64,000 bases of DNA from NCBI GenBank assembly GCA_965223705.1, contig OZ245015.1, positions 1,856,001 through 1,920,000 on the forward strand, written 5' to 3'. Positions within the stretch are counted from its first letter, which is position 1, and every line of letters begins with the position of its first letter. The DNA comes from Myxococcota bacterium (lineage in GTDB: Bacteria > Myxococcota_A > UBA9160 > UBA6930). Made by a program: the position numbers. This document shows, in pieces, positions 30,001 to 33,000 of the stretch.

Positions 30001-33000
30001 GGAGCGAGCCGAAGAGAAAGACGGTCGCGTAGTAGCGGGCGAACTGTGAGATCTCGACGTGGAACGCGCTCACGCAAACGAGCGCCGTACCGCAGGTCGC
30101 GCCGACACGGCCGATCGCCTGACGCGCGAACCAGTAGAACGCGAACAGGCCGAGGATCCCCGAAATGATGGCCGGGAGCCGACCGGCCCAGGCGCGATCG
30201 AGGGGGAGCTCGAGGAAGACGCGGGTGATGTAGTAATAGAGCGAGAACAGACCGCGGGCACCGGGATTTTCCAGCGCGGTCGCCAAGGTGATCGGCTCGT
30301 CGCCCCGGATGTCCCACGTGCCGGCTCCGTAGACGCGCAAGATCGCGCCGACGACCAGCGCGCCTACGAGGACAAGCGTGATGATGACCTCGCGCCGCTC
30401 TCCCGTTTCGGCGGCGGCTCCCGGGTGTGACTGACTCAAGCTCGTGGGCCTCGTGCGGTGGATAGGCAGCACAGCGGACGCTCGCCGGCGCCGCAACCGC
30501 AGCTTCGGTGAATTCCTCTACCTTCGTAGAAAGAAACGATCTTTCCAGTCAAGTGCGAAATAGGTCAGGACGATGGGTTTTTCACCACGCAGGAGCTGTG
30601 TGCTCCTCGAAGAGGCAAACCTGTGGAAACGCAGGGACGCAAAGCCGTTGCCCTCGCTCTGTGCAGGGTCGAACGGCCGTCGAAGGGAGAACGGATGCCT
30701 TTTTTGCTCCTGGGCCTGCTCGGCCTGCTCGGCCTGACGCTCGCGGGTTCTCGCTATGCGGAGCTCACGACGCGCCGCTAGCGACCGCGCCGACTACGCC
30801 TTCGCCGGAATCCACGGGGACACGTACACGCGTACGGAGCCACCGATGCCCTTGAGGTCGTCGGCGTCGATCAACATGCGAAACGAGTGGAAGAGATCCG
30901 GGTTCGACACTTCGGTCTCGTCCAGAACCGGTTGGGTGGCCACGATGCCGGCCGCCGGCGCGAGTTTGAGAATCCGCGAAGCCCGTGGGACACAGGGGCC
31001 GATCAAACCGACCCCGCGGCGAAAGCGGCTGCCCACCATGCCGACGACGACACGACCGTGATCGAGTGAAAGCCTCGGGAGCGGCAACGCGGGGTTCTTG
31101 TCGCGCAGGGCGACCAACCGACGGCGCATTTCGAACGCGGCAGGGACGGCCTCTCCGGGACCTTCGAAATAGAGCAGGGCGCCATCTCCTTCGAAGTCGT
31201 GGACGTCGCCGCAGTGGTAGACGCCGATCTCCGCGACGGTCTCCATGAACTCCTGAACCAGCGCGAGCACGTCGGGCGGCTCGAGTTCCATGACCAGCGG
31301 TGTCGAGTCGACCATGTCGACGAACAGCACCGTCAGGTCGCGCTGAAACGGAAGCTCGCGCCCGTGGAGGAACGAGCGATCTTCGAGGCTCGAGAGAAAC
31401 GGGTCGCCGCCCCCGGCATCGAGCTCCGGAGGCGAGTCGCCCGCCACCCAGGTGTACGAATCGCGGCGGCTCGCGTCGACGTTGGGTGTGTCCTGTCCCG
31501 CGAGGGCCCATGCGGAATAGCCGCCCGCGAGGACCGCGACGTCTCGGTAACCCAGGCTGAGGAGGAGCCGCGCCACGCGCGAGCTTGAAGACTCGCCGCT
31601 TCAGAGGCAGTACGCGACGATCGGCGTGCCCCGATCGATGTCGGGCAGCAGGATCGGATCGTCGTCGAGAAAAATCGGGACCGCATTCGGCAAACCCTTG
31701 GGCAGCTCCTCGAAGCCTTTCCGTCGCCGGACATCGAGCACCAGAGGTGCGTCGCTCGAGGCGAGCATCGGAGCCAGCAGGGCCGGCGTGAGGGTGTGGA
31801 TCGACATGTTTTCTCCTCCCCGGAACGGTAGCGGTCCGCGCTACGCTCCGGCCTATGCGCAGGTTTTTTGCCGCTGTTCTCGCCATCGCCTTCCCGGTAG
31901 CCGCTCCGGCCGTCGATTTTCCGATCGAAGACGCCGAAGTGCGTTCGTGCATCGATCGCTCTCTGCCCGAAAAAGCGATGACGCAGGAAATCGAGGTCCA
32001 CGTCCGCGATCAAGACGGGCCGGTGAGCGACTCCGCCGTCGAGCTCTACTGGAAGCGCTTCGAGCCGGATAGCTCCCGAGCCCTGCTGCGGTTTACGGAT
32101 CCGCCGCGACGCGCCGGGGTCGGCGTGCTCCTCATCGAAACCGAGGAGCCCGAGCCGGAGATGTACCTCTACTTGCCCGAGCTTCGGCAGACGCGCCGGG
32201 TGACCGGGAAAACCCTGGCCGGATCGATGCTCGGAACCGATTTCAGCTACGAGGATTTCGCTCATTTTCAGGGGATTGCCCTCGCGAGCGAAGTCGAGCG
32301 CATCGAGGATCGAGATCTCGACGGTCGGGCCGCGTTCGTCCTTGAGACGACGCCCCTCGACGAGAACTCCGGCTACCAGCGGATCCTGACCTTCATCGAT
32401 CGGGAACAGTGCATCCCTGTGCGGATGGAGTTCTTCGCCCGGAACGGCAACCTCCGCAAAGAGCTCGTCGTGCATCGCGACCAGATCCGAGAGATCGGCA
32501 ACCGGTTCATTCCGCATCGAATCGTGATGTCCGATCTCAAACAGGGCAGTCACACCGAGCTTGTCGTCGTCGACGTCGAAGTCGATCCGAAGTTGCGAGA
32601 TCGTTTCTTCGAGCCGTCCGAGCTCGAGATCGGTCGCTAGGCACCGAATGTGGGGTCACGTGCTCTTCGGGCCGGCCCGGCGGCCGTGGCTCATCGGCGC
32701 GTTCGTCCTCGGCTTGAGCGTCGTCGCAGCGCACACCTTGTTCGATTTCCCGTCGGGTCGGTTGCGCCTCCCGATCGACGCCTCCATCGAAGGGCTCTTG
32801 CCGGCCGGTGATCCGGCTCTCGAGGTCTTCGAAGCCACGAAGGAAACGTTCGGCGACGACGATGTGCTGTTGATCGCGTGGTTCTCCGATGCGCTGTTTT
32901 CGCCGTCGGTCCTCACCGCGCTGAAGACATTTCACGGCGAGCTCGTCGCGATGGATTTCGTCGAGGCGGTCGACAGCCTGGTGTCCGCCGAGCGTCTGAC

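What a model noticed while it worked through the whole genome (the two positions that open the first line are those of the whole stretch)
30794..31807. Selenocysteine rhodanese fused to a class III nucleotide cyclase
g01803 and g01802 are one 337-aa gene (minus strand) read through an in-frame TGA as selenocysteine. The product is an N-terminal rhodanese domain whose active-site loop reads Y-C-L-U, fused to a class III adenylyl/guanylyl cyclase homology domain: a selenoprotein signalling enzyme, not two hypothetical proteins.
Evidence so far: Joined ORF has exactly 1 TGA; Pfam Rhodanese 14-101; C-terminal half hits M. tuberculosis Rv1318c and Stigmatella CyaA cyclase domains. In 192 other genomes of the order, 12 full-length orthologues: 9 with one in-frame TGA, 3 with none; in the fetched loci the TGA (7 loci) stands at the column of Cys in the 3 TGA-less ones. 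Cys forms in the 5.8-billion protein set read YCLC, U aligning with the second Cys, and carry PF00581 + PF00211; the nearest database proteins are 253-275 aa stumps that start after the TGA. A GC-rich hairpin lies 16-20 nt after the UGA. tRNA-Sec, SelA, SelB, SelD are present.
(Added by a program. Inside this text positions count along the whole contig: contig position 1,856,001 is position 1 of the stretch shown here. "Call 12" and the like, gene names such as g00115 and contig names such as C1 are that model's own, and its searches are not shown. The text may have been shortened before it was handed on; [...] marks where a part breaks off. The agent that wrote the report below was given it as the finding of a first reader that could run no searches.)

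Follow-up and report, generated by a model that had tools for sequence, protein, structure and literature searches.

The report
Selenocysteine rhodanese fused to cyclase domain
Two "hypothetical" genes are really one 337-residue protein that reads an internal UGA as selenocysteine, joining a rhodanese-type sensor with a Cys-x-Sec site to a nucleotide-cyclase domain, a kind of selenoprotein that does not seem to have been described.

Summary
Window 31807..30794 (-) is one 337-codon frame with a single in-frame TGA at codon 69 (AYCLU). The N-terminal part is a rhodanese domain; Sec69 aligns with the catalytic Cys of solved rhodaneses. The C-terminal part folds as a class III cyclase domain (AlphaFold pLDDT 90.6; Foldseek CyaC TM 0.81). 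tRNA-Sec, SelA, SelB and SelD are present.

Across 68 family members the active site reads CxC (26), CxU (30) or UxU (12). All 54 in-frame stops are TGA. A hairpin 14-15 nt after the UGA is 90% paired in 35 Sec forms against 58% in 23 Cys forms, with synonymous compensatory changes.

The cyclase pocket is non-canonical: the substrate Lys is Asp in 77/77, the substrate Asp is a small residue, and the transition-state Asn is Pro in this sub-lineage. Activity and nucleotide are therefore open.

Cys forms sit in copper-resistance operons (21/26). This copy lies head-to-head with a LolA-like/MMPL operon whose transporter carries one of only 7 cNMP-binding domains in the genome.

CxU rhodanese selenoproteins are known (NF041203). 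I found the cyclase fusion and the UxU form in no model or paper searched. Verdict: real selenoprotein (about 0.9), a new variant of known kinds; signalling mechanism inferred.

The parts
30794..31807 (-). Whole gene: 337 codons plus TAG stop, read through one UGA as Sec
   Evidence: orthologue alignment A1
31813..31821 (-). Shine-Dalgarno-like GGGGAGGAG, 5 nt before ATG 31807
   Evidence: no such motif before the alternative GTG at 31576
31505..31768 (-). Rhodanese homology domain (residues 14-101)
   Evidence: Pfam PF00581 E 1e-9; PDB alignments to 1yt8 and 6mxv
31607..31609 (-). Cys67 codon (TGC), first position of the C-x-U motif; invariant Cys in the 71-sequence alignment and TGA in the 12 UxU forms
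31601..31603 (-). UGA = Sec69, at the column of the catalytic Cys of rhodaneses and of Cys in the CxC forms
31566..31585 (-). SECIS-like hairpin: 8 pairs with one bulge, loop GUG (31576..31574), 15-nt spacer after the UGA, -11.4 kcal/mol
   Evidence: the same stem occurs in the 78%-identical relative L155; the family hairpin lies 1-2 nt further 5'
30818..31345 (-). Class III cyclase homology domain (residues about 155-330)
   Evidence: phmmer against PDB E 1.3e-8; AlphaFold model pLDDT 90.6; Foldseek CyaC TMt 0.81, rmsd 2.3
31316..31318 (-). Asp164, first metal-binding Asp (FVD), invariant
31184..31198 (-). D204-F-E-G-D208: Asp204 at the substrate-Lys position (Asp in 77 of 77) and Asp208, the second metal Asp
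30974..31009 (-). G267 (substrate Asp/Thr position), P274 (transition-state Asn position), R278 (transition-state Arg)
31855..32640 (+). Divergent neighbour 47 bp away: LolA_like periplasmic protein with a signal-peptide-like start
   Evidence: Pfam PF17131 E 1.4e-42
32648..35359 (+). MMPL/RND-type membrane transporter with a C-terminal cyclic-nucleotide-binding domain (35021..35275); proposed receiver of the cyclase product
   Evidence: Pfam MMPL E 1.8e-34 and cNMP_binding E 1.1e-12; one of 7 cNMP_binding hits in the 4.56-Mb genome

Best explanation
The locus encodes one cytoplasmic selenoprotein of 337 residues.

Translation. It starts at ATG 31807. At UGA 31603..31601, SelB with Sec-tRNA(Sec), positioned by the hairpin 15 nt downstream, inserts selenocysteine. 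This step is inferred from comparative evidence (about 0.9).

Sensor domain. The N-terminal rhodanese-like domain carries Cys67-Leu-Sec69, with Sec at the place of the catalytic rhodanese Cys. It is followed by an acidic, Ser-rich loop (SGESSSS) instead of the basic CRxGxR loop. I read this domain as a thiol/selenol switch rather than a thiosulfate sulfurtransferase. The C-x-U pair would either bind a soft metal, with Cu(I) the best candidate, or cycle between selenol/thiol and a selenenyl-sulfide or persulfide state (inferred, about 0.5).

Output domain. Through a conserved linker (FL(P/S)xL...LP..R), the sensor controls a C-terminal class III cyclase homology domain. By analogy with all class III cyclases, this domain would act as a homodimer. 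It keeps both metal-binding Asp and the transition-state Arg. Its base-recognition pair is Asp204/Gly267, closer to the Glu/Gly pair of guanylyl-type enzymes than to Lys/Asp, and the Asn is Pro. The nucleotide made is therefore open, and turnover may be low (active cyclase: about 0.5).

Receiver. In this genome the likely receiver is the cyclic-nucleotide-binding domain at the C-terminus of the MMPL transporter, which is encoded head-to-head 47 bp away (inferred, about 0.3).
For: One gene read through UGA:
- The frame has a single TGA.
- A strong SD precedes ATG 31807 and none precedes GTG 31576.
- The 68 codons before the UGA are conserved (A1). Against the 78%-identical relative L155 they give pN 0.26 and pS 0.69, dN/dS 0.17.
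- In 60 pairs of Sec forms, differences upstream of the UGA fall 389/232/1067 by codon position.
- Cys stands at the same column in 26 of 68 members. All 54 in-frame stops at the two motif positions are TGA, whereas terminal stops are TGA 41, TAG 22, TAA 4.
- TGA is an ordinary stop in this genome: 11 of 29 gene calls in the window.

SECIS:
- The hairpin at columns 17-24/30-37 after the UGA is 90.3% paired in 35 Sec forms, reached by 0 of 500 shuffles; slid controls give 25-67%.
- Pair 21-33 reads CG 19, UA 13, UG 3, unpaired 0, through synonymous Ser/Ala third positions.
- The same structure is only 57.8% paired in 23 Cys forms.
- The window has its own hairpin in the same place.
- The genome's second CxU rhodanese gene has the family-type hairpin.
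- The Sec machinery is complete.

Domains: PF00581 is over its cut-off. U69 aligns with the catalytic Cys of 1yt8 domain 2 and of 6mxv. The cyclase fold is supported.

Catalytic residues: the metal Asp pair and the Arg are conserved, with Arg in 73 of 75. The Pro274 sub-lineage (P0002-P0006, 67-91% identical) keeps GPCVPRASR and the whole core, so it is under constraint and not decaying.

Sensor reading: Cys forms lie in cop operons in two phyla (21 of 26). The window's nearest tree neighbours, L063 and L066 (98/93 support), follow a P1B copper ATPase directly.

Receiver: only 7 cNMP_binding hits occur in 4.56 Mb, and one lies 3.2 kb from the gene.
Against: - There are no expression or selenium-incorporation data.
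- PF00211 scores below its cut-off for this protein (15.1 against 21.9 bits), and the genome-wide PF00211 search does not pick it up.
- Three of the six canonical cyclase residues are replaced in this copy (Lys to Asp, Asp to Gly, Asn to Pro).
- The hairpin is not exceptional on stability alone. The 67-nt fold has z +0.68. The 31-nt hairpin has z -1.67, matched by 14 of 200 shuffles. Sec and Cys forms do not differ significantly in folding energy (means -15.0, -14.7 and -13.6 kcal/mol; p 0.09).
- The window's own register of the hairpin is shared by only one other sequence, so it has no covariation of its own.
- No neighbour is conserved among the 12 order orthologues.
- Copper genes flank only 1 of 30 CxU and 0 of 12 UxU forms, and none lies within window 19-49 kb. 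The copper link therefore rests on Cys-form relatives.
- The MMPL-CNB adjacency is seen in this genome only and was noticed post hoc.
- No full-length orthologue was found with this query in the other 31 genomes of the same family, including two of the same genus that are 87% and 75% complete.
Confidence: 0.7

Rival explanations
1. It is a real selenoprotein, but the C-terminal domain is not an active cyclase. It would be a degenerate cyclase-homology domain serving dimerisation or nucleotide binding. The rhodanese C-x-U site would be the working part, for example a sulfur/selenium-transfer or Cu(I)-handling protein of copper or reactive-sulfur defence.
For: Lys to Asp in 77 of 77 members; the Asn position varies (N 48, H 14, S 9, P 4 of 75) and is Pro here. 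PF00211 is below its cut-off. Cys forms are embedded between structural copper-resistance genes (multicopper oxidase, DUF411, P1B ATPase), not next to cNMP receivers.
Against: Both metal Asp, the Arg and the whole CGDVxDxEGDGALLYFE core are invariant or nearly so across five or more phyla. That is what an active site under selection looks like. The acid/small-residue pair resembles guanylyl-type enzymes rather than a ruined pocket (best PDB hit is the Ma1120 KDA-to-EGY mutant). A CNB-domain transporter is adjacent here.
Confidence: 0.2
2. UGA terminates translation. The locus then gives a 68-aa rhodanese fragment and a separate 260-aa cyclase protein starting at GTG 31576, as gene callers annotate it.
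For: This is the table-11 reading, and all close database relatives are annotated as 253-275 aa proteins. Under selenium limitation some termination at UGA is expected in any selenoprotein gene (general knowledge).
Against: A 68-aa fragment ends in the middle of the rhodanese fold, just before its active-site loop. GTG 31576 has no SD and lies in the loop of the hairpin. In-frame stops are 54 of 54 TGA, with Cys at the same column in relatives. The fragment is under purifying selection.
Confidence: 0.05
3. It is a pseudogene: a nonsense mutation in a former Cys-form gene.
For: The window protein sits on a long terminal branch (1.18 against a median of 0.19) and has lost the canonical Asn.
Against: The same TGA is present in 41 other sampled family members from several phyla. 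Its own sub-lineage (67-91% identity) keeps the frame and the core. There are no other stops or frameshifts. dN/dS upstream of the UGA is 0.17. The contigs of three runs agree with the sequence.
Confidence: 0.03
4. It is a Pycsar-like anti-phage module: a pyrimidine cyclase plus a membrane effector with a cNMP-binding domain.
For: The best PADLOC hit is PycC (PDLC02367, E 1.3e-9, 35.8 bits), which scores higher than Pfam Guanylate_cyc. The neighbour's CNB domain matches the CNB parts of Pycsar models.
Against: The similarity is at the level shared by all class III domains and CNB domains. The 'effector' is a 900-aa MMPL transporter in an operon with a LolA-like protein. Relatives have no CNB neighbour and sit in cop operons or housekeeping contexts. 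The rhodanese sensor has no counterpart in Pycsar as far as I recall.
Confidence: 0.02

Closest known systems
Rhodanese-related (seleno)protein NF041203 'rhodanese_LYCAU' (rhodanese-like selenoprotein form 3, CxU; table in PMC13188914, passages read)
   Same: Rhodanese fold with a Y-C-x-U motif and one Sec. It is the best NCBIfam hit of the window protein (47.4 bits, residues 11-102).
   Different: NF041203 is a stand-alone protein of about 126 aa. The window protein scores far below its cut-off (115 bits) and carries a 190-residue cyclase domain. Its family also has UxU forms.
Sensor-fused class III nucleotidyl cyclases: CyaC of S. platensis (1WC0/2BW7), OaPAC (4YUS/5X4T), Ma1120 (4WP9/5D0G), guanylyl cyclase Cya2 (2W01)
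   Same: Same catalytic fold (TMt 0.75-0.82). Both metal Asp and the Arg are kept. An N-terminal sensor is joined to a C-terminal cyclase domain, as in OaPAC (BLUF-cyclase).
   Different: The sensor is a Sec-containing rhodanese. The substrate Lys is Asp, the substrate Asp/Thr is Gly/Ala/Ser, and Asn is Pro in this copy. The Pfam score is below threshold.
TsoB, rhodanese/DsbD fusion-like selenoprotein (NF045694, UxxxxU, 2 Sec)
   Same: It is another fusion protein whose rhodanese domain carries Sec. It is a weak hit (13.1 bits). It sets a precedent for two Sec in one rhodanese-type site.
   Different: The fusion partner (DsbD-like), the motif spacing and the family all differ.
DedA-rhodanese selenoprotein of the same genome (G000:C1:145403-146428; L166 804-1829)
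   Same: Same rhodanese subtype (VCTU-PSEASSAR) and the same type of SECIS hairpin at the same distance.
   Different: The rhodanese is C-terminal to a DedA-type membrane domain, and there is no cyclase domain.
Cu(I)/persulfide thiol sensors encoded in cop or cst operons (CsoR/CstR type; recalled)
   Same: Cys-based sensing of Cu(I) or reactive sulfur. They are encoded next to P1B ATPases, as are the CxC relatives of the window protein.
   Different: Those are small DNA-binding repressors. Here the proposed output is a nucleotide cyclase, and metal or persulfide binding is not shown.

Membership tests
Bacterial selenoprotein (SelB/SECIS-dependent UGA decoding) | In-frame UGA with conserved coding sequence on both sides | tested here: met
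Bacterial selenoprotein (SelB/SECIS-dependent UGA decoding) | Cys-containing homologues with Cys at the UGA column | tested here: met
   26 CxC forms among 68 members; 3 of 12 order orthologues
Bacterial selenoprotein (SelB/SECIS-dependent UGA decoding) | Stem-loop directly 3' of the UGA (SECIS) at a suitable distance | tested here: met
   Family hairpin: 90.3% paired with covariation in Sec forms against 57.8% in Cys forms. The window has its own 8-bp hairpin with a 15-nt spacer. Thermodynamic stability alone is not significant. No Rfam family matched.
Bacterial selenoprotein (SelB/SECIS-dependent UGA decoding) | tRNA-Sec, SelA, SelB and SelD in the genome | tested here: met
   all over the curated cut-offs
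Bacterial selenoprotein (SelB/SECIS-dependent UGA decoding) | Selenium in the protein | not testable with these tools
   needs 75Se labelling or MS
Rhodanese homology domain (PF00581) | Profile score over the gathering threshold | tested here: met
   39.2 against 22.2 bits
Rhodanese homology domain (PF00581) | Catalytic Cys at the start of the active-site loop | tested here: met
   Sec69 aligns with that Cys in 1yt8 (domain 2) and 6mxv
Rhodanese homology domain (PF00581) | Basic CRxGx[R/T]-type loop of active thiosulfate sulfurtransferases (motif recalled) | tested here: not met
   The loop reads U-S-G-E-S-S-S, and U-P-E-D-A-S-S in clade B: acidic, with no Arg
NF041203 rhodanese_LYCAU (equivalog) | Score over the curated cut-off of 115 bits | tested here: not met
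   47.4 bits; related, but not a member
NF041203 rhodanese_LYCAU (equivalog) | Y-C-x-U motif | tested here: met
   AYCLU
Class III nucleotidyl cyclase (PF00211) | Profile score over the gathering threshold | tested here: not met
   15.1 against 21.9 bits. About half of the listed Cys-form homologues carry precomputed PF00211.
Class III nucleotidyl cyclase (PF00211) | Catalytic-domain fold | tested here: met
   Model pLDDT 90.6. Foldseek CyaC E 1e-14, TMt 0.81, rmsd 2.3 A. phmmer against PDB E 1.3e-8.
Class III nucleotidyl cyclase (PF00211) | Two metal-binding Asp | tested here: met
   D164 and D208 are invariant
Class III nucleotidyl cyclase (PF00211) | Substrate-defining pair Lys/Asp(Thr) (adenylyl) or Glu/Cys(Gly) (guanylyl) | tested here: not met
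   Asp204/Gly267. In the family: Asp in 77 of 77, with A 44, S 20, T 6, C 3, G 2 of 75.
Class III nucleotidyl cyclase (PF00211) | Transition-state Asn and Arg | tested here: inconclusive
   Arg278 is present (R in 73 of 75). The Asn position is Pro here and N in 48 of 75.
Class III nucleotidyl cyclase (PF00211) | Head-to-tail dimer and cyclase activity | not tested
   No complex prediction was run; activity needs an assay
Pycsar (PycC plus CNB effector) | PycC-type cyclase next to a dedicated CNB-TM/TIR effector, conserved as a pair | tested here: not met
   PycC hit 35.8 bits. The neighbour is an MMPL transporter, and the pairing is absent from 12 of 12 order orthologues.

The most novel reading that the evidence does not exclude
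This would be the founding member of a family of selenoprotein nucleotide cyclases. A rhodanese-derived C-x-U (elsewhere U-x-U, possibly diselenide-forming) site senses cytoplasmic Cu(I) or reactive sulfur/selenium species. It switches on synthesis of a cyclic nucleotide, possibly cGMP or a pyrimidine cNMP given the Asp/small-residue pocket. In this organism that nucleotide gates an MMPL/LolA-like envelope exporter through its C-terminal cNMP-binding domain. Selenocysteine would then be used for signal perception rather than redox catalysis.
Probability: 0.25. Interest if true: 0.85.

Novelty: new variant of a known kind. Interest (0 to 1): 0.66.

Why it matters
Nearly all catalogued prokaryotic selenoproteins are redox or metal-handling enzymes. 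The 2026 catalogue I read in passages (PMC13188914) lists five rhodanese-type forms and does not contain the word 'cyclase'. A Sec-bearing sensor wired to a second-messenger output would extend selenium use to signal transduction.

The family also offers a natural series for asking what Sec adds to a sensor: CxC, CxU and UxU, with at least nine switches on the tree.

It further points to an unstudied component of copper-resistance operons in cultured Nevskiales (Sinimarinibacterium, Solimonas, Hydrocarboniphaga). These carry the Cys form and are experimentally tractable.

On the practical side, gene callers split every Sec form into a stump (253-275 aa in the databases). No NCBIfam model reached its curated cut-off on the protein: the best, NF041203, scored 47.4 against 115 bits and covers only the rhodanese part.

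Tried and rejected
- Conserved neighbourhood among the 12 order orthologues: tblastn of seven window proteins found only the gene itself. No operon-level inference is possible for the Sec forms.
- Rfam scan of the SECIS region: only a sub-threshold, unrelated hit.
- Folding energy as a discriminator: not significant.
- Promoter and terminator consensus scan of 30400-32200: none found.
- RNA evidence: no RNA holder is listed among public runs. The runs laid were contigs of one sample, possibly the source, and only confirm the letters.
- Metagenome scan for close relatives gave 25 loci. Only one (L155) belongs to the window's sub-lineage. It carries an N and loses the frame after about residue 104, so only codons 1-68 were used.
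- Search with the rhodanese part alone (residues 1-112) returned only members of the same family, so it says nothing about other fusions.
- Pfam scan of the second Sec-rhodanese together with a UxU locus failed because my coordinates for L098 included a stop. I relied on the NCBIfam result instead.
- Pycsar reading: considered and rejected.
- Papers: six full-text searches found nothing on a rhodanese-cyclase fusion or a selenoprotein cyclase. The library holds open-access papers and bioRxiv only. Supplements of the review were not opened.
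Full report
1. WHAT IS IN THE SEQUENCE

On the minus strand, ATG 31807 to TAG 30796..30794 is a single frame of 337 codons. It has one internal stop, TGA at codon 69 (window 31603..31601), and the local peptide is IVAYCL-U-SGESSSSRVARLL.

Table 11 splits the frame into a 68-aa ORF and a 260-aa ORF from GTG 31576. A GGGGAGGAG Shine-Dalgarno motif sits 5 nt before ATG 31807. Nothing comparable precedes GTG 31576, which lies in the loop of the hairpin described below.

TGA is an ordinary stop in this genome: it ends 11 of 29 gene calls in the window, against TAG 16 and TAA 2. 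Logan contigs of three runs of one sample, possibly the source, carry the 1.5-kb stretch without a single difference. The TGA is therefore not an assembly slip.

2. DOMAINS

Rhodanese part. Residues 14-101 match Pfam Rhodanese (E 1e-9, over the cut-off). The best NCBIfam model is NF041203, 'rhodanese-related (seleno)protein, LYCAU', at 47.4 bits, far below its 115-bit cut-off. In phmmer alignments to solved rhodaneses, Sec69 falls on the catalytic Cys (1yt8 domain 2, nCaGrtRS; 6mxv, yfyCgggfRS). Cys67 lies two residues earlier, at the end of the beta-strand. The loop after Sec is Ser-rich and acidic (SGESSSS; PEDASS in the other clade) and lacks the Arg of active sulfurtransferase loops. That motif is recalled, not taken from a call.

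Cyclase part. Residues about 155-330 hit solved class III cyclases: Ma1120 at E 1.3e-8, OaPAC at 7.7e-8, then CyaC, Cya2 and CyaB. Pfam Guanylate_cyc stays below threshold (15.1 against 21.9 bits).

Model. An AlphaFold model built on a 71-sequence alignment has mean pLDDT 90.6 and pTM 0.87; only the linker 130-137 is poor. Foldseek places the C-terminal domain on CyaC of S. platensis (E 1e-14, TMt 0.81, rmsd 2.3 A). OaPAC, Cya2, Rv1900c and Ma1120 follow.

3. IS THE UGA SELENOCYSTEINE?

(a) Machinery. tRNA-Sec (78.2 bits, anticodon TCA), SelB (320.7 bits), SelA (486 bits) and SelD (269.6 bits) are all present and over their cut-offs.

(b) Orthologues in the order. In 193 genomes of the order, 12 others have a full-length orthologue. 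Nine have one TGA and three have none, and those three read YCLC at the same column.

(c) Wider sample. A scan of species-representative genomes gave 78 loci; this set overlaps the order set. With the window, 68 genes carry the rhodanese motif: CxU 30, CxC 26, UxU 12. Nine further loci have the cyclase motif without the rhodanese motif, and two matched neither pattern. All 54 in-frame stops at the two motif positions are TGA, while the genes' terminal stops are TGA 41, TAG 22 and TAA 4. The rows are related, so this is not a clean probability, but the contrast is stark.

(d) Coding constraint before the UGA. In 60 pairs of Sec forms, the differences in the 45 codons upstream fall 389/232/1067 on codon positions 1/2/3. 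The window against its 78%-identical metagenomic relative L155 gives pN 0.26, pS 0.69 and dN/dS 0.17 over codons 1-68. L155 loses the frame after about residue 104, so the rest was not used.

(e) RNA structure. In 35 distinct Sec-form sequences a hairpin starts 14 nt after the UGA: stem CAGYGCC/GGCRCUG, loop CGKGY. The three others (L065, L079, L083) and the window were left out of this count because their stem is shifted by 1-2 nt.
- It is 90.3% paired, reached by 0 of 500 shuffles; slid controls give 25-67%.
- Pair 21-33 reads CG 19, UA 13, UG 3 and is never unpaired. The changes are synonymous third positions of a Ser and an Ala codon.
- The same structure laid on 23 distinct Cys forms is 57.8% paired and no better than shuffles.

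The window's own hairpin (31585..31566) has 8 pairs, one bulge, loop GUG, a 15-nt spacer and -11.4 kcal/mol. It occupies the same codons, and L155 shares it.

Against: stability alone is unremarkable in this GC-rich DNA (z +0.68 for 67 nt; z -1.67 for 31 nt; Sec against Cys forms p 0.09). No Rfam family matches.

(f) A second CxU gene. The genome's second CxU-rhodanese gene is a DedA-rhodanese fusion, VCTU-PSEASSAR. It has the family-type hairpin (GAGCGCU-CGGGU-AGCGCUC) at the same distance. The local SelB therefore evidently serves this module.

Taken together, I put Sec decoding at about 0.9.

4. THE CYCLASE POCKET

Mapping onto OaPAC and Ma1120 and the family alignments gives:
- Both metal Asp (D164, D208) are invariant.
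- The transition-state Arg is R278 (R in 73 of 75).
- The substrate-Lys position is Asp in 77 of 77.
- The substrate Asp/Thr position is A 44, S 20, T 6, C 3, G 2; it is Gly in the window.
- The transition-state Asn position is N 48, H 14, S 9, P 4; it is Pro in the window.

The best PDB hit is the KDA-to-EGY (guanylyl-type) mutant of Ma1120, whose Glu and Gly align with D204 and G267. The pocket is thus acid plus small residue. That is nearer to guanylyl-type enzymes than to adenylyl ones, but it is not canonical.

PADLOC's PycC models score higher than Pfam's general model (35.8 bits). I take this only as a hint that pyrimidine substrates should be included in any assay.

The Pro is not decay. 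The five closest database proteins (67-91% identical, all annotated as stumps starting after the TGA) keep GPCVPRASR and the whole core.

5. FAMILY, TREE AND CONTEXT

Distribution. By the record titles the tool printed, members come from MAGs labelled Myxococcota, Binatia/Binatota, Methylomirabilota/Rokubacteria and Tectomicrobia. Members also come from cultured Nevskiales/Salinisphaerales: Sinimarinibacterium, Solimonas, Hydrocarboniphaga and Spectribacter. The family is small. A profile search of 1.84 billion representatives gives 90 proteins at E <= 1e-30; these include multi-rhodanese proteins, stumps and cyclase-only forms.

Tree. An ML tree of 66 rows (L075 and L136 dropped as incomplete) has two clades. 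Clade A holds 25 CxC and 6 CxU forms, including the window. Clade B holds 24 CxU and 11 UxU forms. The labels need 9 changes. The window sits on a long branch (1.18) beside two CxC genes from Myxococcota-titled MAGs, with 98/93 support.

Context of Cys forms. Cys forms lie in copper-resistance clusters: multicopper oxidase, an ORF, the gene, then DUF411; or a P1B ATPase with HMBD directly upstream; or CsoR plus ATPase. This holds for 21 of 26 CxC forms within the fetched flanks, but only 1 of 30 CxU and 0 of 12 UxU. The link spans two phyla. It includes the window's nearest tree neighbours, but not the window itself.

Context in the window. The gene is head-to-head, 47 bp apart, with a LolA_like gene. 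That gene is followed by an MMPL transporter ending in a cNMP-binding domain. The genome has only 7 such domains, and only 3 Pfam-detectable cyclases. By rough arithmetic, the chance of one within 4 kb is about 1%, but this is post hoc. The pairing is not seen at the 12 order orthologues. No copper genes lie within window 19-49 kb; a Fur-family gene follows the transporter.

6. MECHANISM I COMMIT TO

The protein is a cytoplasmic sensor-cyclase.

Shown or strongly supported: it is one gene; Sec stands at the rhodanese catalytic position with Cys two residues before; it has the cyclase fold with an intact metal site.

Inferred: the C-x-U pair is a soft-metal (Cu(I)) or redox/persulfide switch. 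It controls a dimeric cyclase whose product, of open identity, is read in this organism by the neighbouring CNB-MMPL transporter.

The main rival (0.2) keeps the selenoprotein but makes the cyclase domain non-catalytic. Termination at the UGA with two genes, a pseudogene, and a Pycsar-like module are unlikely (0.05, 0.03 and 0.02).

7. KNOWN OR NEW

CxU rhodanese selenoproteins are catalogued: NF041203, 'form 3' in the table of PMC13188914, which I read in passages. That review lists five rhodanese-type forms, including the two-Sec TsoB. It contains neither 'cyclase' nor 'UxU'. The 2005 Sargasso Sea paper lists 'rhodanese-related sulfurtransferase' among selenoprotein families (table passage).

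JGI already names Cys forms 'class 3 adenylate cyclase/rhodanese-related sulfurtransferase', so the domain fusion is visible in databases. Six full-text searches found no paper on it or on any selenoprotein cyclase. On the NCBIfam scan no model reached its curated cut-off; the best, NF041203, covers only the rhodanese part.

I class the finding as a new variant of known kinds. The Sec-bearing fusion, the UxU form and the copper-operon link of the Cys forms are the new elements.

Noticed in passing
L097, L098, L103, L104, L105, L112, L114, L116, L121, L124, L127, L136 (motif about 190-200 nt into each match): Twelve family members, mostly titled Binatia, read Y-U-T-U. They have two in-frame TGA codons separated by one codon, with a single downstream hairpin (spacers of 20 and 14 nt). 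Close relatives have Cys at the first position (L101 YCTU against L104 YUTU). 'UxU' does not occur in the 2026 selenoproteome review text.
   Followed up: partly
G000:C1:145403-146428 (L166 804-1829, +): A second selenoprotein of the same genome: a DedA-type membrane domain fused to a C-terminal rhodanese with VCTU-PSEASSAR (NF041203 63.3 bits, below cut-off) and a family-type SECIS hairpin. About 3.7 kb away lies one of the genome's three canonical class III cyclases (cyclase-AAA_16-TPR). A Trans_reg_C-AAA_16-TPR regulator lies between them.
   Followed up: partly
L068-L076, L078, L080, L084, L086-L091, L096, L063, L066: Cys-form rhodanese-cyclase genes sit inside copper-resistance operons (multicopper oxidase, DUF411/CopG-like, P1B ATPase with HMBD, CsoR). 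This includes cultured Sinimarinibacterium, Solimonas and Hydrocarboniphaga.
   Followed up: yes
L135, L137, L138 (also L130, L133, L139): The same cyclase subfamily (GDVKDYEGDG, with the FxPG linker) also occurs without a rhodanese domain. It is preceded by a short N-terminal stretch with two Cys (M.DQHCNE..W.CRQ).
   Followed up: no
window 32648-35359 (+); also G000:C1:2981996-2982250: An MMPL/RND-type transporter with a C-terminal cyclic-nucleotide-binding domain, preceded by a LolA_like gene. A second cNMP_binding hit in a 904-aa open frame elsewhere in the genome may be a paralogue.
   Followed up: partly
G003:C1:1792291-1792776 and G003:C1:1667557-1668141 (L092): One order genome has the rhodanese part with its TGA (query residues 13-168) and the cyclase part (137-331) about 125 kb apart. 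The cyclase part is preceded by a run of N. This is either a split form or an assembly matter; I did not resolve it.
   Followed up: no
L057 7380-7760, L058 1941-2267: A small TerB-like gene lies between the P1B ATPase and the CTU-form gene in one locus, and near the gene in another.
   Followed up: no
window 29015-30496 (-); L061 5996-7864; L059 3474-5834: Membrane glycosyltransferases (PMT_2 or STT3/AglB-like) lie next to the gene in the window and in two order orthologues. Significance unknown.
   Followed up: no
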